Sequence record: NC_001954.1
Reading direction: 5' to 3' (one strand)
From: Escherichia phage If1
DNA length: 8,454 nucleotides
The notes beneath the pieces are model-generated. The model was not told the DNA's origin, did no database searches, and saw nothing but the letters and a program-made list of their open reading frames with translations. The translations under genes and the position numbers were made by a program. Positions 4,834 to 8,432 of this stretch are shown here, in pieces. Positions within the stretch are counted from its first letter, which is position 1; each line of letters starts with the position of its first letter.

Positions 4834-4929
4834 TCCCGTAGCACCGGCGTTCTCCCTGCGCAGCGGGGGGAACGTTGGTGAGAAGGGCGCTCAGACAGGA
4901 AAATCCCTCCCGATTATCAGGTGGAACAA

Positions 4930-4947
4930 ATCCTGTTTTCACAGGAT
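4930..4947 (+). other. Stem-loop in the gene IV-proximal intergenic region (candidate packaging-signal or minus-strand-origin structure)
   Basis: ATCCTGT(4930-4936)-TTTC-ACAGGAT(4941-4947), a perfect 7-bp stem with a tetraloop and no following T-tract. Confidence 0.35.
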
Positions 4948-5060
4948 ATACAGTAAGACTCACATCATCATAAATACAAAGCGAGACGGGTATCGTAAGA
5001 GTTGCCATGTAGCATTTCCTTTGTGCTGTTGAATTTGTGGGTGCATTTGCACGCGAAGCG

Positions 5061-5085
5061 GTTCGGGGTTCTGTGACACCCGAAC
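5061..5085 (+). other. Stem-loop (7-bp stem, 11-nt loop) in the intergenic region
   Basis: GTTCGGG(5061-5067)...CCCGAAC(5079-5085), read directly from the sequence. Confidence 0.35.
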
Positions 5086-5088
5086 TTT

Positions 5089-5112
5089 ACCGTGGTTTCC
5101 CACGGTATTTTT
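5089..5112 (+). terminator. Plus-strand rho-independent terminator candidate
   Basis: ACCGTGG(5089-5095)-TTTC-CCACGGT(5100-5106) followed by A then T5 (5108-5112). On the minus strand the hairpin is not followed by a T-run, so it is directional (+). It lies immediately before the 3' end of the minus-strand ORF at 5119. Confidence 0.55.
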
Positions 5113-5118
5113 CTAATC

Positions 5119-5310
5119 TTACTCGCTGGACTTGGTTGTGTGAATCAGATCCTTTTCTGTATCTTTTGCATAATTATCAATCAGATGATTAACGATATCA
5201 GTCCAAGTGATCGCACGTCCAGCGGTATGACTGGCATCGATCGCCAGCCGTTCGAGTTTTAGCTTTCGTTCAGCCACGATAGCCATAGTTGTTCGTTTTG
5301 GAGTTGCCAT
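5119..5310 (-). CDS. Small ribbon-helix-helix-like DNA-binding protein (putative regulator; function unknown)
   Basis: 63 aa from ATG (reverse complement of 5308-5310): MATPKRTTMAIVAERKLKLERLAIDASHTAGRAITWTDIVNHLIDNYAKDTEKDLIHTTKSSE. Short N-terminal beta-strand-like segment (RTTMAIV) followed by two predicted helices, as in the CopG/Arc/MetJ pattern. GGAAG lies 5 nt upstream of the ATG. The ORF track starts at an upstream TTG (5322). The only clearly antisense gene relative to the phage operons. Confidence 0.45.
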   Translation of the reverse strand: MATPKRTTMAIVAERKLKLERLAIDASHTAGRAITWTDIVNHLIDNYAKDTEKDLIHTTKSSE

Positions 5311-5329
5311 CTTAACTTCCAAAGGGTAC

Positions 5330-5379
5330 TCCCGCCGACATAAGGCGGGAGGGGAATTTGGACGGGCTTGAAAAGCCCG
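5330..5379 (+). repeat. Left-end subterminal hairpins of the IS (candidate TnpA recognition structures)
   Basis: Hairpin 1: TCCCGCC(5330-5336)-GACATAA-GGCGGGA(5344-5350). Hairpin 2: CGGGCTT(5363-5369)-GAA-AAGCCCG(5373-5379). They lie just downstream of the tnpA stop (5388-5390 on the minus strand) and are separated by a G-rich motif GGGAGGGGAA. Confidence 0.5.
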
Positions 5380-5387
5380 AAGGGTGA

Positions 5388-5768
5388 TCAGCCACGCTGA
5401 TGTTGAATGTATTGCCTAACAACTTCCAGCGGCGCACCTCCGCAGGAGCCAGCAAAGTATGACCTAGACCAGAGCACGGCTTTTCCGTATGCCCCCCGCA
5501 AATCAAGAAATTCGTTTCGCAGACGGCGGGATGTCACTGCTTTCAGTGAGTTAACCAGTACCGAAAGCTGCACTGTTGGTGGGTATTCGATCAGCATGTG
5601 GACATCATCGTACGTCTCCGTTACTTTCTTTAAGTTCCTCGCCCCAAAATCACGGCAGCACTTCTGCCTGCATACTGATGAAATGGCTGCACAGTGTAAC
5701 TCTCCCAGTATCTTTCGACGGTATTTTGTTACAAAGACGAAGATGAACATGCAAAAGGAAGGCAGCAT
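5388..5768 (-). CDS. tnpA: IS200/IS605-family Y1 (HuH) transposase TnpA
   Basis: 126 aa from ATG (reverse complement of 5766-5768); the track ORF opens at TTG 5831. Core motifs present: ...FVTKYRRK..., ...DDVHMLIEYPP... (HuH-region) and ...LWSRSYFAGSCGGAPLEVVRQYIQHQ (catalytic Tyr region). The first His of the HuH motif reads as Asp (D-V-H). Confidence 0.85.
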   Translation of the reverse strand: MLPSFCMFIFVFVTKYRRKILGELHCAAISSVCRQKCCRDFGARNLKKVTETYDDVHMLIEYPPTVQLSVLVNSLKAVTSRRLRNEFLDLRGAYGKAVLWSRSYFAGSCGGAPLEVVRQYIQHQRG

Positions 5769-5852
5769 GTCTTGAACGATTGATTTTATATTTTTGCATT
5801 GAGGTTGGCCGTAAAAGCAGTAATATTGCAAGAAAATCTAGCTACACACTGA

Positions 5853-6143
5853 ATGATGATGCTAATCCTGAAAGCCTACAAATTCAGACTGGAACCAACG
5901 CCTGAACAGTCGCAGCGTTTGCGGCAGTTATGCGGTTGCGCCCGTTTTGTCTGGAATTTAGGTCTTGCGGAGACAAAGCGCATACTTGACTCAGGCGAAA
6001 AGTTACCTTCGGCTTTCGAGTTGAACCGGAGTGATTACAGTGTGGAAAAAAATGCCGGAATACATCTTCTTACAGGATGCCTATACCGACAATCTGCAAC
6101 AAAAGCTGAAAGACCTGCATACCGCATGGAAACGTTGTTTTGA
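5853..6143 (+). CDS. tnpB: tnpB N-terminal fragment (frame 0), out of frame with the main tnpB body
   Basis: Starts ATGATGATG. MMMLILKAYKFRLEPTPEQSQRLRQLCGCARFVWNLGLAE matches the canonical TnpB/OrfB N-terminal signature (KAYKFRLxPTxEQ...GCARFVWN). Only about the first 60 aa look genuine; the rest of the frame runs to a stop at 6141-6143. Confidence 0.7.
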   Translation: MMMLILKAYKFRLEPTPEQSQRLRQLCGCARFVWNLGLAETKRILDSGEKLPSAFELNRSDYSVEKNAGIHLLTGCLYRQSATKAERPAYRMETLF

Positions 6144-7086
6144 TAAAAAGCTCGCAGCTAAGGCTCCGGTATGGAAACGAAAAAATGAGGGCAGAGACTC
6201 AATCCGTTTTGTGAACTTTGAGAAATATTGCTGCCTTGAAAATCGCAGAGTGAAGCTACCGTCAGGTCTTGGGTGGGTAAAATTCCGGCAATCTCAACGT
6301 GTGAACGGTAAAATCAAAAATGCGACAATCAGTCAGTTAGCGGGACAGTGGTATATCTCGTTTCAGGTTGAAATTGAAACGGCAGAACCAAATCACACAA
6401 GCACAACGATAGTCGGTCTGGATGCTGGCGTGGCTAAACTCGCCACGCTGTCAGATGGCACAGTCTTTGAACCTGTAAACAGTTTTCAGAAAAACCAGAA
6501 GAAGCTGGCGAGACTTCAGCGACAGTTAAGCCGCAAGGTCAAATTCAGCAACAACTGGCAGAAGCAGAAACGCAAAATACAGTGTCTGCATTCCCGTATC
6601 GCAAATATCCGCAGAGACTACCTTCATAAAGTCACAACGACCGTCAGCAAAAACCACGCAATGATAGTCATTGAGGATTTGAAGGTCAGCAACATGTCAA
6701 AGTCAGCAGCGGGTACGGTCAGCCAGCCGGGGCGCAATGTCCGGGCAAAATCAGGTTTAAACCGTTCGATACTGGATCAGGGCTGGTATGAAATGCGCCG
6801 CCAGCTTGAGTACAAACAGCTCTGGCGTGGAGGTCAGGTGCTTGCTGTTCCGCCAGCGTACACAAGCCAGCGTTGCGCGTGCTGTGGTCATACAGCGAAA
6901 GAAAACCGCCTGTCACAAAGTCAATTCAGATGCCAGGTATGTGGATATACAGCGAACGCCGATGTAAATGGCGCTCGTAACATTTTAGCGGCGGGGCACG
7001 CCGTACTTGCCTGTGGAGGGACGATGCAGTCAGACCGCCCGTTGAAGCAGGAACCAGACGCTGAGCAATCAGCCGTCACCCACTAA
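6031..7086 (+). CDS. tnpB: tnpB main body: RuvC-like, zinc-finger RNA-guided endonuclease (IS605 OrfB / OMEGA TnpB)
   Basis: 351 aa in frame +1 relative to the N-terminal fragment. RuvC-I (IVGLDAGV), RuvC-II (MIVIEDLKV), zinc finger (CACCGH...CQVCGY) and RuvC-III ([10 protein letters not shown]) all present. Frame opens just after TGA at 6022-6024, with first start-like codon GTG at 6031. Combined with the N-terminal fragment the protein would be about 410 aa. Confidence 0.85.
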
Positions 7087-7091
7087 TGGGA

Positions 7092-7132
7092 ATCCCCCTC
7101 CTGAGTCACGAAGTGCGAAGGTGGGGGAGGAT
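7092..7132 (+). repeat. Right-end imperfect palindrome / G-rich motif of the IS (candidate RE structure and omega-RNA scaffold 3' region)
   Basis: ATCCCCCTCC (7092-7101) ... GGTGGGGGAGGAT (7120-7132), 6-13 nt after the tnpB stop. It can form an imperfect stem with bulges. It resembles the left-end motif GGCGGGAGGGGAA at 5344-5356. Confidence 0.4.
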
Positions 7133-7140
7133 GTCAATCC

Positions 7141-7315
7141 ACACCTCAGTAGTTTTCTGCTGGCATAAAGCTAAACACTTATGCTCTCCAGTCGTATTCT
7201 GCCGTCATTATAGTTAAACACTTATGCGCTCATATCATTATGCTTGTATACATGCGTAATGCGTGATAGATTTTTGTCATTTCGTAACTGCATACATGTA
7301 TAGGGTGAGTGTTCA
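7141..7315 (+). promoter_or_regulatory. Gene II-proximal intergenic region: candidate plus-strand origin, gene II promoter and operator
   Basis: AT-rich. 13-bp direct repeat TAAACACTTATGC at 7172-7184 and 7215-7227. Palindromes TGTATACA (7245-7252) and ATACATGTAT (7292-7301). Possible -35 TTGTCA (7274-7279). SD-like GGGTGAG before the ATG at 7316. Same position as the plus-strand origin and gene II promoter in Ff phages. Confidence 0.45.
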
Positions 7316-7537
7316 ATGTTTTTTGACTGGCTGACTATTGAACAGGATTTTGGCTTTCAGCTACCGATTTTGAGTGATGTTGCCTATCAGCGCATCCACC
7401 TCGAAAGCGGGGAAGCGTCAGCTCTGAGTCAGCCAACTTTTCAGCACAAAGGATCTTTTTGTGATGGTTGTTTCGATCTCTATCCGAGGCTCATTGCTGA
7501 AAGTCTCTGGAAATCCTTCCCGGTGGGGGCGTCTTGA
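7316..7537 (+). CDS. II: Gene II replication initiator, N-terminal segment (frame 2), ahead of an apparent frameshift
   Basis: MFFDWLTIEQDFGFQLPILSDVAYQRIHLESGEASALSQPTFQHKGSF... Start and N-terminal pattern resemble M13 pII (MIDMLVLRLPF...). The genuine part probably ends at F48 (7457-7459); the track ORF continues out of frame to 7537. Confidence 0.7.
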   Translation: MFFDWLTIEQDFGFQLPILSDVAYQRIHLESGEASALSQPTFQHKGSFCDGCFDLYPRLIAESLWKSFPVGAS

Positions 7538-8432
7538 TAATTTATTTGGCCTTCCAACTTTGGATTCCTGTGTATCGGTTTTCAATACGATCCTTGCTGA
7601 AATAGGTTTACCTCAGTTTACGAAATGTAAGAGGCTTATGCCCGGCCAGGCAAAAGAGAATGAGAAAGCACCTCTTGTTGCTGACGGTGCAATTATTAAA
7701 GAAGTACATATCACCTCGAACAGGGCGGCAGGTAAGGGGAATGAAGATGACTATATTTCAGGTTTATCTACGCAACCCTACAGGAACAGCGTTCCACGGC
7801 TACACTCCAATGGAAAATCCGTTGACTGGCTGTCTAAAAAAGGCAATGTAAACCTCATATATCCAACGGTTTACAATAAAGCTCATGAAATGGAACTCCA
7901 TTCTTTGACAAAGATAAAGAATCGTTTTTCCGAACAATCTCGGGAATACAATTACCTACTCGATATTATATCTTTCTGCAAAGAGAATGGGGTCGTAAGG
8001 TTTGAGCAAAAGCTGAAATCCAGATTTTTGCAAAAGAATGCGCTCAATTACTGGGGGCTTTCTGATTATTCCATTTTAAATAAGTTACATTCTGATTTTC
8101 TTGAACTTGATAAAAAGTTATCGGTGAATGCTATGGACTTTGAAACTATCAGTGATCATCTTGTAAGTAGTGGGGTTGTTGAAACCACCCGTGCAGCAAA
8201 TACTACCGCAATGTATGCAATACAGTGGTTTCACGGTCATGTATTTGACTTCAACAAAAAACAGGTTCAGACACATCGGGCGCGGTTACGAAAAATTGGT
8301 ATCGACATTGCGCAGAAATGCAATGTTTCTAAATTCTCTCCTGTGATTGTGAAACAAACACGGGAAATTAAGGTGCAGGAGTGCGTTGCACCATCATGGT
8401 ATGTACGTCCGTCACATTTACGCGTTGCATAG
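7461..8432 (+). CDS. II: Gene II replication initiator (rolling-circle nickase), main body (frame 0)
   Basis: 323 aa. SISIRGSLLKVSGNPSRWG aligns with M13 pII CVEIKASPAKVLQGHNVFG, and RFEQKLKSRFLQKNAL with M13 RFEARIKTRYLKSF. Stop TAG at 8430-8432. Frame opens after TGA at 7425-7427. Confidence 0.9.
   Translation: MMVVSISIRGSLLKVSGNPSRWGRLDNLFGLPTLDSCVSVFNTILAEIGLPQFTKCKRLMPGQAKENEKAPLVADGAIIKEVHITSNRAAGKGNEDDYISGLSTQPYRNSVPRLHSNGKSVDWLSKKGNVNLIYPTVYNKAHEMELHSLTKIKNRFSEQSREYNYLLDIISFCKENGVVRFEQKLKSRFLQKNALNYWGLSDYSILNKLHSDFLELDKKLSVNAMDFETISDHLVSSGVVETTRAANTTAMYAIQWFHGHVFDFNKKQVQTHRARLRKIGIDIAQKCNVSKFSPVIVKQTREIKVQECVAPSWYVRPSHLRVA
8133..8432 (+). CDS. X: Gene X product (in-frame internal start within gene II)
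   Basis: In-frame ATG at 8133 (MDFETISDHL...) preceded by GGTGA at 8123-8127. 99 aa. Same relative position and size as M13 pX (111 aa). Confidence 0.5.
   Translation: MDFETISDHLVSSGVVETTRAANTTAMYAIQWFHGHVFDFNKKQVQTHRARLRKIGIDIAQKCNVSKFSPVIVKQTREIKVQECVAPSWYVRPSHLRVA

What the first reader, a model, noticed from the sequence alone, without database searches (positions are those of the whole stretch)
5330..5379. Matching G-rich motifs and hairpins at both IS ends
The left-end region has GGCGGGAGGGGAA (5344-5356) flanked by two GC-rich hairpins. The right-end region has ATCCCCCTCC ... GGTGGGGGAGGAT (7092-7132) just after the tnpB stop. IS200/IS605 ends are defined by subterminal imperfect hairpins recognised by TnpA rather than by inverted repeats, so these are the candidate recognition structures. 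A related C-rich motif AAATCCCTCC at 4901-4910 in the phage intergenic region could be a remnant or target-like site.
Basis: seen in the sequence. Interest (0 to 1): 0.45.

Follow-up and report, generated by a model that had tools for sequence, protein, structure and literature searches.

The report
Insertion-sequence end hairpins in a filamentous phage
The two G-rich hairpin regions are the ordinary left-end and right-end recognition structures of an IS200/IS605-family insertion sequence that has jumped into a filamentous phage genome; this is textbook transposon anatomy, not a new kind of element.

Summary
The motifs are real and sit where reported. IS-free relatives of the phage give an exact empty site (GCCAT|TCCACACC), so the IS is window 5311-7137, with no target duplication. 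The left hairpin (CTCCCGCC 5329-5336 / GGCGGGAG 5344-5351) starts 18 nt inside the left end. The right hairpin (main stem 7094-7102 / 7119-7127) ends 10 nt before the right end. IS608 has 19 and 10 nt.

The four bases 5' of the left hairpin foot (GGTA) are Watson-Crick partners of the flanking target CCAT, which is found at 19 of 21 copies. The four bases 5' of the right hairpin foot (GAAT) and the terminal TCAA are identical to the IS608 right guide and cleavage site. Relatives about 80% identical keep both hairpins, with some compensatory changes.

Three details need correction. GGCGGGAG is itself the 3' arm of the first hairpin, not a motif between two hairpins. The second left hairpin (5363-5379) is the accessory hairpin already known from IS608, ISDra2 and IS605. 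AAATCCCTCC at 4901 is a chance match in phage backbone.

The right hairpin also lies in a ~135-nt block with suppressed synonymous change, probably the TnpB guide-RNA scaffold (inferred). Known biology; low interest.

The parts
5307..5310 (+). Target / left cleavage site (TAM) CCAT. Phage sequence immediately 5' of the IS, not part of it. On the minus strand it contains the ATG of a 63-aa phage ORF.
   Evidence: Empty sites in L002 and L003 read GCCAT|TCCACACC. CCAT flanks 19 of 21 copies; the exceptions are CTAT and TCAT.
5311..7137 (+). IS200/IS605-family insertion sequence. It is 1827 bp here and 1818 bp in intact E. coli plasmid copies. There are no terminal inverted repeats and no target duplication.
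   Evidence: Empty-site comparison. blastn to relatives stops exactly at IS positions 1 and 1827. Plasmid copies are 99.4% identical.
5325..5328 (+). Left DNA guide (GL) GGTA, the 4 nt 5' of the left hairpin foot. Position by position it is the Watson-Crick partner of CCAT.
   Evidence: Sequence. The position rule comes from IS608. Pair counts: C:G 14 of 15 and 13 of 15, A:T 15 of 15, T:A 15 of 15; the two target variants are C->T, which is G.T-compatible.
5329..5351 (+). Left subterminal hairpin (IPL): CTCCCGCC / 7-nt loop GACATAA / GGCGGGAG.
   Evidence: DNA fold gives -10.2 kcal/mol, z -4.6. 98.3% of cells are paired across 15 relatives, with one compensatory G-C to A-T change and 10 G.T against 2 A.C on the top strand.
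5352..5356 (+). G-rich 3' flank of IPL (GGGAA). Its G residues are candidate third-strand partners of the guide:target pairs, by analogy with IS608 bases A+42 and T+43.
   Evidence: All five positions are invariant in 15 relatives. The IS608 base triplets are described in PMC5934647. The role here is inferred only.
5363..5379 (+). Second, accessory left-end hairpin: CGGGCTT / GAA / AAGCCCG. It lies 9 nt beyond the tnpA stop codon on the other strand.
   Evidence: Fold gives -7.9 kcal/mol, z -4.0. 98.1% paired, with 2 pairs changed on both sides. A second LE hairpin 3' of IPL is reported for IS608, ISDra2 and IS605. There is no T tail.
5388..5799 (-). tnpA (Y1 HUH transposase). In the window it is broken by seven single-base insertions relative to the plasmid copies.
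   Evidence: Alignment to L001. The intact protein matches Pfam Y1_Tnp at E 9e-38.
5859..7086 (+). tnpB (RNA-guided nuclease family). In the window it is split by one extra G at 6031.
   Evidence: The intact protein matches Pfam OrfB_IS605, Cas12f1-like_TNB and HTH_OrfB_IS605.
7002..7137 (+). Block of elevated conservation covering the last ~28 tnpB codons and the right end. Probably the scaffold of the TnpB guide RNA (omega RNA).
   Evidence: Third-codon-position identity is 0.90-0.93 here against 0.42-0.72 over the rest of tnpB; the post-stop region is 0.94. There is a conserved stem with a sub-threshold RAGATH-18 match at 7010-7053. No transcript evidence.
7090..7093 (+). Right DNA guide (GR) GAAT, the 4 nt 5' of the right hairpin foot. 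Identical to IS608 GR.
   Evidence: IS608 GR is GAAT. Variants GGAT and GGAG occur in relatives.
7094..7127 (+). Right subterminal imperfect hairpin (IPR): CCCCC-T-CCT / 16 nt (7103-7118) / AGG-T-GGGGG, with a T.T mismatch at 7099/7122.
   Evidence: DNA fold. Pair 7101/7120 changes C-G to T-A in 4 of 10 relatives. IS609 in phage RCS47 has a different 8-bp stem (CCACGCCC/GGGCGTGG) between the same GAAT and AGGATG.
7128..7137 (+). 10-nt tail: linker AGGATG plus right cleavage site (TEM) TCAA, which is the last 4 nt of the IS.
   Evidence: Invariant in 18 of 18 copies. IS608 CR is TCAA, 10 nt 3' of the IPR foot.
7138..7157 (+). Phage sequence 3' of the right end. If an omega RNA is made, this would be its guide; together with CCAT it matches the IS-free phage site.
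   Evidence: Inferred from the published TnpB/omega-RNA model and the empty-site sequence.
4901..4910 (+). AAATCCCTCC. Phage intergenic sequence unrelated to the IS.

Best explanation
The window is a circular Ff-like filamentous phage genome carrying one IS200/IS605-family insertion sequence of the IS605 type, with divergent tnpA and tnpB, at 5311-7137. The flagged G-rich hairpin regions are its cis-acting ends.

By analogy with IS608, the Y1 transposase TnpA binds the folded top (+) strand at two hairpins: the left one (5329-5351) and the right imperfect one (7094-7127). It does not read the cleavage sites directly. The 4 nt just 5' of each hairpin foot act as DNA guides. GGTA (5325-5328) pairs with the flanking target CCAT (5307-5310), so the left cut falls between 5310 and 5311. 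GAAT (7090-7093) positions TCAA (7134-7137), so the right cut falls after 7137.

This is expected if one TnpA dimer binds both ends. The small second left hairpin (5363-5379) is the accessory LE hairpin known from IS608, ISDra2 and IS605.

The right hairpin very probably has a second role as the 3' part of the TnpB guide-RNA scaffold, with the phage flank from 7138 onward as guide and CCAT as the TAM.

Shown here: boundaries, target, absence of a duplication, hairpins, spacing, guide/target complementarity, conservation.
Inferred: TnpA binding and cleavage, top-strand specificity, base triplets, the omega RNA.
For: Boundaries: two IS-free phage contigs read ...GGAGTTGCCAT|TCCACACCTCAG.... Only removal of 5311-7137 reproduces this.

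Independent copies: 4 E. coli plasmid sites and 16 loci from Photorhabdus, Xenorhabdus and Providencia begin and end at the same bases. One splits traC.

Target: CCAT at 19 of 21 copies and TCAA at 18 of 18.

Spacing: 18 nt and 10 nt here; 19 nt and 10 nt in IS608. Guides lie 4 nt 5' of the foot. GR GAAT and CR TCAA are identical to IS608.

Guide pairing: GGTA is fully complementary to CCAT, and both natural target variants are C->T (G.T-compatible).

Folding: z-scores -5.0 (LE) and -3.25 (RE).

Pairing across relatives: 98.2% (LE) and 94.6% (RE) of cells paired, against 38-67% when the partners are slid. Compensatory changes occur at 3 LE pairs and 1 RE pair.

Sister element: IS609 has a completely different 8-bp stem in the same slot between GAAT and AGGATG.

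Proteins: Y1_Tnp and OrfB_IS605/TNB/HTH domains.

Second LE hairpin: reported in the literature for IS608, ISDra2 and IS605.

Omega RNA: synonymous-site identity rises to 0.90-0.93 in the last ~85 nt of tnpB. The TAM/guide model is published.
Against: There is no biochemical or transcript evidence for this element.

Covariation is thin. The relatives are only about 20% diverged and their ends are 90-92% identical, so most pairs never vary. The shuffle controls are only moderately exceeded (15 of 500 and 23-36 of 500 shuffles reach the observed values).

The excess of G.T over A.C on the top strand (10 vs 2 in IPL) is not phylogenetically independent and could reflect C->T mutation bias.

L009 has guide GATA with target CCAT, an unpaired C.A.

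The RE inner stem (CAC/GTG) is broken in 2 of 10 relatives at each of two pairs.

GR varies (GGAT, GGAG) without any change in TCAA.

Rfam support for an omega RNA is below threshold (28.1 bits against a 44.9 gathering score) and was not recovered in a larger search.

In the window copy both tnpA and tnpB are frameshifted, so this copy may be inactive if those indels are real.
Confidence: 0.88

Rival explanations
1. The hairpins are mainly transcriptional elements. The left-end hairpins would terminate or stabilise the tnpA mRNA (minus strand, stop at 5388), and the right-end hairpin would terminate tnpB (stop at 7086). On this view they are not transposase recognition sites.
For: Both lie just downstream of a stop codon: the second LE hairpin is 9 nt after the tnpA stop and the RE hairpin begins 7 nt after the tnpB stop. 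From memory, IS200 is known to carry a terminator-like hairpin near one end.
Against: The terminator scan reports no site at either place, because no T tail follows the stems. Single-sided changes in the LE hairpins are mostly G.T on the + strand, which would be C.A mismatches in a minus-strand tnpA transcript. The spacing to the ends and the guide/target complementarity are unexplained by this view. The internally deleted derivative L018 keeps only the last 54 nt of the right end, with no tnpB to terminate.
Confidence: 0.08
2. The right-end hairpin is conserved only as part of the TnpB omega-RNA scaffold, and TnpA recognises some other structure at the right end.
For: The hairpin sits inside a ~135-nt block of suppressed synonymous change that extends well beyond what TnpA needs. 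RNA consensus folding keeps it as the last stem before the boundary.
Against: GAAT, an 8-9-bp stem, a 10-nt tail and TCAA reproduce the experimentally defined IS608 RE layout exactly. IS609 keeps the same layout with a different stem. L018 retains just this 54-nt module without the rest of the scaffold. The two roles are not mutually exclusive, and the main explanation assumes both.
Confidence: 0.05
3. The similar G-rich motifs at the two ends work by pairing with each other (5348-5358 with 7091-7101, 11 nt, 91% complementary). They would bring the ends together as a disguised terminal inverted repeat.
For: the repeat finder lists this LE/RE pair (I6).
Against: Equally good 11-nt, 91% pairs occur between unrelated parts of the IS (I7, I8). 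Flanking positions vary in relatives without compensation (LE TTT to TTG or TGT, RE GAAT to GGAT). The complementarity follows automatically from two hairpins with similar stems.
Confidence: 0.03
4. The motifs are phage structures (origin, packaging signal or terminators) or a chance G-rich resemblance, and are unrelated to the IS.
For: Filamentous phage intergenic regions are rich in hairpins, for example 4840-4880 and 5060-5107 in this window.
Against: Both regions are absent from the IS-free phage contigs. They travel with the IS in plasmids and in Photorhabdus chromosomes.
Confidence: 0.01

Closest known systems
IS608 (Helicobacter pylori), the structural and biochemical model of the IS200/IS605 family
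   Same: Subterminal hairpins at both ends. Guide tetranucleotides lie immediately 5' of each hairpin foot. The left cleavage site lies outside the element and doubles as the target. There is no duplication. RE is identical in GR (GAAT), CR (TCAA) and the 10-nt distance; the LE distance is 18 vs 19 nt. A second small hairpin lies 3' of IPL.
   Different: The target is CCAT with guide GGTA, instead of TTAC with AAAG. tnpA is divergent from tnpB, whereas from memory the two are co-directional and overlapping in IS608. The RE hairpin has a long 16-nt conserved interior. The LE hairpin is perfect rather than imperfect.
IS609 (E. coli; K-12 insQ, copies in P1-like phage-plasmids)
   Same: The tnpB 3' part is about 96% identical over window 6409-7055. 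The RE layout is the same: GAAT, 8-bp stem, AGGATG, TCA. The right cleavage site is reported as TCAA.
   Different: IS609 is reported as 1340 bp with left cleavage site TTAT. The copy read in RCS47 carries tnpB only. Its RE stem sequence is CCACGCCC/GGGCGTGG with a 4-nt loop, and its left end is unrelated. The present element is 1818 bp, has tnpA, and targets CCAT.
ISDra2 and ISGst TnpB/omega-RNA systems (and the IS607 TnpB reRNA containing RAGATH-18)
   Same: tnpB has its 3' end and the RE under extra nucleotide constraint. The transposon boundary would set the scaffold/guide junction, and the target of TnpA would serve as the TAM.
   Different: No RNA or cleavage data exist here. The TAM would be CCAT rather than a T-rich motif (TTGAT from memory; TTTAT and TTCAT). 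The RAGATH-18 resemblance is sub-threshold.
PATE-like non-autonomous derivatives of IS200/IS605 elements
   Same: L022 (~480 bp) and L018 (~540 bp) keep the LE and RE modules with most coding sequence deleted. PATEs are described.
   Different: Only single examples were seen. Mobilisation after the deletion is not shown.

Membership tests
IS200/IS605 family insertion sequence (IS605-type organisation) | Encodes a Y1 HUH transposase (TnpA) | tested here: met
   The intact plasmid copy matches Pfam Y1_Tnp at E 9.3e-38 and has HVH and a C-terminal Y. In the window copy the reading frame is broken by 7 single-base insertions.
IS200/IS605 family insertion sequence (IS605-type organisation) | Accessory tnpB (OrfB_IS605 / RuvC-like with zinc ribbon) | tested here: met
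   Matches OrfB_IS605 at 6e-33, Cas12f1-like_TNB at 3e-24 and HTH_OrfB_IS605 at 3e-17.
IS200/IS605 family insertion sequence (IS605-type organisation) | No terminal inverted repeats; subterminal hairpins at both ends | tested here: met
   Hairpins at 5329-5351 and 7094-7127. The only LE/RE complementarity is an 11-nt chance-level match.
IS200/IS605 family insertion sequence (IS605-type organisation) | Insertion 3' of a specific tetra- or pentanucleotide, without target-site duplication | tested here: met
   Empty site is GCCAT|TCCACACC. CCAT flanks 19 of 21 copies.
IS200/IS605 family insertion sequence (IS605-type organisation) | Guide tetranucleotide 5' of each hairpin foot that matches the cleavage site; IS608-like spacing | tested here: met
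   GGTA is complementary to CCAT. GAAT and TCAA are identical to IS608. Spacing is 18 and 10 nt against 19 and 10 nt.
IS200/IS605 family insertion sequence (IS605-type organisation) | Strand-specific (top-strand) ssDNA binding, cleavage and circle formation by TnpA | not testable with these tools
   Only indirect hints are available: the G.T over A.C excess on the + strand, and the IS top strand being the strand that carries the phage genes.
TnpB omega-RNA (right-end-derived guide RNA) | Conserved structured RNA overlapping the tnpB 3' end and RE, ending at the transposon boundary | tested here: inconclusive
   Synonymous-site identity is 0.90-0.93 in the last ~85 nt of tnpB, and a consensus fold exists. 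Rfam hits are below threshold and there are no expression data.
IS609 (as described for pJIE250-3) | About 1.34 kb with left cleavage site TTAT and right cleavage site TCAA | tested here: not met
   The element is 1818 bp, carries tnpA, and has left site CCAT. Only the RE layout and the tnpB 3' part are shared.
Intrinsic (rho-independent) terminator | G+C-rich stem followed by a T run | tested here: not met
   No terminator-like site is reported at 5329-5379 or 7093-7128 on either strand.
IS remnant or target site at 4901-4910 | Similarity to IS ends beyond chance, or presence of the target CCAT plus the RE-flank sequence | tested here: not met
   46 matches at 3 or fewer mismatches against 39.9 expected. 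A homologous but diverged sequence is present in the IS-free phage L003.

The most novel reading that the evidence does not exclude
The IS sits with its active (top) strand in the strand that a filamentous phage packages and displaces as single-stranded DNA. Its end hairpins would therefore be permanently exposed. The phage could act as a natural ssDNA shuttle that picked the element up from the IncI1-type plasmids where 99.4%-identical copies reside. In addition, the element's TnpB guide RNA (guide = 7138 onward, TAM = CCAT) would match exactly the empty site of IS-free sibling phages. An intact copy could then cut competitors that lack the insertion, or force its own retention, with an unusual non-T-rich TAM.
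Probability: 0.12. Interest if true: 0.5.

Novelty: already known. Interest (0 to 1): 0.15.

Why it matters
It mostly does not. The finding recovers the standard end architecture of an IS200/IS605 element.

Practical value:
- It fixes the exact IS boundaries (5311-7137) in this phage record.
- It shows that about 1.8 kb of the 8454-nt genome is a passenger element absent from close relatives.
- It gives the element's predicted target/TAM (CCAT) and left guide (GGTA). This could be useful to anyone wanting a TnpB with a non-T-rich TAM, or a re-targetable TnpA, but only after experimental confirmation.

Tried and rejected
- Looked for an IS-free phage in 5,426 E. coli genomes with a joined-flank query. 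No phage was found, only a ~60-nt element.
- The annotated phage collection holds no close backbone relative, only Ff phages at about 69%.
- Tried to obtain the IS608 end oligonucleotide sequences for a base-by-base comparison. The supplement is not held, a sequence-string search was unspecific, and Guynet 2009 is not held. I therefore relied only on the published numbers and tetranucleotides.
- Searched for a published TnpB TAM of CCAT: none found.
- Considered the outer LE helix TCCAAA/TTTGGA (5318-5323 with 5357-5362) from the MFE fold. Rejected because the relatives' TTGGGA and TGTGGA variants break it without compensation.
- Considered AAAG (5321-5324) as the guide because it equals the IS608 GL. 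Rejected because it is not adjacent to the hairpin foot and has no complementarity to CCAT.
Rejected on the MFE fold and the IS609 comparison.
- Rfam gave only sub-threshold hints: RAGATH-18 in the window, and HgcC and sot0042 in IS609.

Full report
**Context.** The window is an Ff-like filamentous phage. Genes VI, I and IV match f1, fd and M13 at about 69% nucleotide identity on the + strand. It is identical to the 8454-nt IMG/VR record IMGVR_UViG_638275991_000001. Contig L002 runs across the window's end-to-start junction, so the genome is circular. From memory, 8454 nt is the size of phage If1; I could not verify the name.

Between 5311 and 7137 lies an element with a divergent gene pair. 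tnpA is on the minus strand (5388-5799) and tnpB on the plus strand (5859-7086). In intact copies the two proteins match Pfam Y1_Tnp, and OrfB_IS605, Cas12f1-like_TNB and HTH_OrfB_IS605.

**Observation.** Folded as single-stranded DNA, the left-end region 5305-5400 reaches -24.5 kcal/mol against -12.7 +/- 2.3 for shuffles (z -5.0). The right-end region 7060-7145 reaches -18.5 against -10.9 +/- 2.3 (z -3.25).

The anatomy differs slightly from the description. GGCGGGAG (5344-5351) is the 3' arm of a perfect 8-bp hairpin whose 5' arm is CTCCCGCC (5329-5336). A second hairpin is CGGGCTT/AAGCCCG (5363-5379). At the right end the favoured register pairs 7094-7102 with 7119-7127 around a T.T mismatch, leaving AGGATGTCAA as a 10-nt tail.

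**Boundaries.** A gapped pattern built from the two flanks found two IS-free phage contigs in IMG/VR. Both read ...GTTCGTTTTGGAGTTGCCAT|TCCACACCTCAGTAG.... L002 is 99.7-99.9% identical to the window backbone. Only deletion of 5311-7137 turns the window into that sequence, so the boundaries are exact and nothing is duplicated.

Independent copies agree. Ninety-eight E. coli records hold a place covering at least 80% of the 2,201-bp query (window 5100-7300), which contains the IS. Four plasmid copies in different contexts, one splitting traC, are 1818 bp, start CTTAAC... after CCAT and end ...GGATGTCAA. Sixteen loci from Photorhabdus, Xenorhabdus and Providencia, 76-80% identical overall, align to the window IS up to exactly positions 1 and 1827.

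Across 21 copies the left flank is CCAT in 19; the others are CTAT and TCAT. All 18 right ends read finish in TCAA.

**Comparison with the defined mechanism.** For IS608, the left cleavage site TTAC lies 19 nt 5' of the foot of the left hairpin. [quoted passage not shown] Each is recognised by base interactions with four guide bases immediately 5' of the hairpin foot: GL is AAAG and GR is GAAT. The left cleavage site is also the insertion target.

Here the distances are 18 and 10 nt. The four bases before the right hairpin are GAAT and the element ends in TCAA, both identical to IS608. The four bases before the left hairpin are GGTA, which are Watson-Crick partners of CCAT position by position. 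Because the first two positions are G,G opposite C,C, this holds under either the simple or the crystal-derived mapping (A+16:T-3, A+17:T-4).

The two natural target variants are C->T changes that keep a G.T pair. One relative (L009) has guide GATA with CCAT, an unpaired C.A.

The G run 3' of the left hairpin (5352-5354, invariant) occupies the place of the IS608 bases that form base triplets with the guide:target pairs. A G.G-C triplet role is a plausible inference only.

**Conservation and covariation.** The first 80 nt of the IS are 90% identical across relatives and the last 50 nt are 94%. This compares with 82% for tnpA and 75% for the tnpA-tnpB intergenic region.

For the two left hairpins plus the guide:target pairs, 98.2% of 284 cells are standard pairs, against 38-54% when partners are slid. 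Three pairs change on both sides: G-C to A-T in the first hairpin, and C-G to T-A and G-C to A-T in the second.

At the right hairpin, 94.6% of 129 cells pair, against 48-67% when slid. Pair 7101/7120 switches C-G to T-A in four relatives. The innermost CAC/GTG stem is not maintained.

IS609 in phage RCS47 offers a stronger contrast. Between the same GAAT and the same AGGATGTCA it has a different 8-bp stem, CCACGCCC-TTCG-GGGCGTGG. This fixes the stem register and shows replacement of the whole stem.

Single-sided changes in the left hairpin are mostly G.T on the + strand (10 against 2 A.C). This suits a top-strand structure but is weak evidence, because the sequences are related and C->T changes are common.

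**The second left hairpin.** A small hairpin 3' of the main left palindrome has been described for IS608 (+46 to +60), ISDra2 and IS605, with a minor or regulatory role. The hairpin at 5363-5379 (+53 to +69) fits that description. It has no T tail, and neither do the other two hairpins, so none meets the terminator pattern.

**The right end as RNA.** Third-codon-position identity among eight copies is 0.42-0.72 along tnpB. It rises to 0.90-0.93 in the last ~85 nt (window ~7002-7086) and stays at 0.94 to the boundary. This block is larger than TnpA should need.

The block contains a conserved stem, CCUGUGGAG...CGUUGAAGCAGG, with a sub-threshold RAGATH-18 match (28.1 bits against a 44.9 gathering score). 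RAGATH-18 is part of the guide RNA of IS607 TnpBs. The IS609 copy gives weak hits to HgcC and sot0042.

Together with the published model, in which TnpB uses an RNA ending at the right boundary and the same motif that TnpA targets, I infer that the right hairpin doubles as the last stem of an omega-RNA scaffold. On that reading CCAT is the TAM and 7138 onward is the guide. This is not shown.

**The 4901 motif.** AAATCCCTCC differs from ATCCCCCTCC at three positions. The window has 46 such matches against 39.9 expected, and better ones lie elsewhere. The region does not fold. It lies in phage backbone, and the IS-free phage L003 has a diverged homologue, GGAAAGT-CCTCTCG. It is neither an IS remnant nor a target-like site.

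**Verdict.** The details of the left-end anatomy and the right-end register need correcting, and the 4901 suggestion should be dropped. The feature is a standard IS200/IS605 end pair. The element is not IS609 as described (TTAT, 1340 bp) but a tnpA-bearing relative that targets CCAT. I could not check ISfinder for its name.

Noticed in passing
window 5606-6031 and 7466: Relative to 99.4%-identical plasmid copies, the window IS differs almost only by nine single-base insertions (5611, 5638-5639, 5659, 5667, 5685, 5739, 5841, 6031). These frameshift both tnpA and tnpB. The phage backbone also has an extra G at 7466 relative to L002, which splits the probable gene II (ORFs 7316-7537 and 7461-8432). 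A frameshift in an essential gene suggests sequencing errors in the record rather than real decay.
   Followed up: partly
window 5119-5310 (minus strand) and 7138-7150: The IS landed exactly between the start codon of a 63-aa minus-strand phage ORF (ATG = complement of 5308-5310; no Pfam match) and its Shine-Dalgarno-like GAGGTG, which is now 1.8 kb away at 7142-7147. The ORF is now downstream of tnpA and the left-end hairpins.
   Followed up: partly
window ~5046-5110: A ~60-nt double-hairpin element (GGTTCGGGGT...ACCCGAAC, then TACCGTGG-TTT-CCCACGGTA followed by TTTTT) matches 748 places in 678 E. coli genomes at 92-97%, 424 of them on plasmids. It also matches Alteromonas phage phiAFP1 at 96%. 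In one plasmid it lies beside an ISNCY-family transposase pseudogene. Its nature is unknown.
   Followed up: partly
L022 2411-2893 and L018 2465-3001: These are internally deleted derivatives of the same IS in Photorhabdus. L022 keeps IS positions 1-203 plus 1565-1827. L018 keeps 1-167, 264-573 and only the last 54 nt. Both are still flanked by CCAT and end in TCAA. They are possible PATE-like non-autonomous elements.
   Followed up: no
window 5311-7137 vs L001 (IncI1-type plasmid, between hha and dqlB): The closest copies of the IS are on E. coli plasmids that encode ExcA, the IncI1-type surface exclusion protein. If the phage is the I-pilus-specific If1 (from memory), it probably acquired the IS from the plasmid of its propagation host. 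The only IS-bearing instance found in IMG/VR is the window record itself. The IS top strand is on the strand that carries the phage genes, i.e. the packaged strand.
   Followed up: partly
window 4932-5119 vs L003: The IS-free relative L003 (95-98% identical elsewhere) has a different sequence in place of this part of the intergenic region, so the region is modular or variable between close phages. The first 1325 nt of L002 also do not match the window.
   Followed up: no
L023 1985-2020 (IS609 in phage RCS47): This IS609 copy reads ...GGAGGATGTCAC at its right end where TCAA is expected from the pJIE250-3 description. Either the last base differs or the boundary is one base earlier. Its left end (TTAT|CCAATGTGCCGCCCCCTAC...) is unrelated to the left end studied here.
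   Followed up: no
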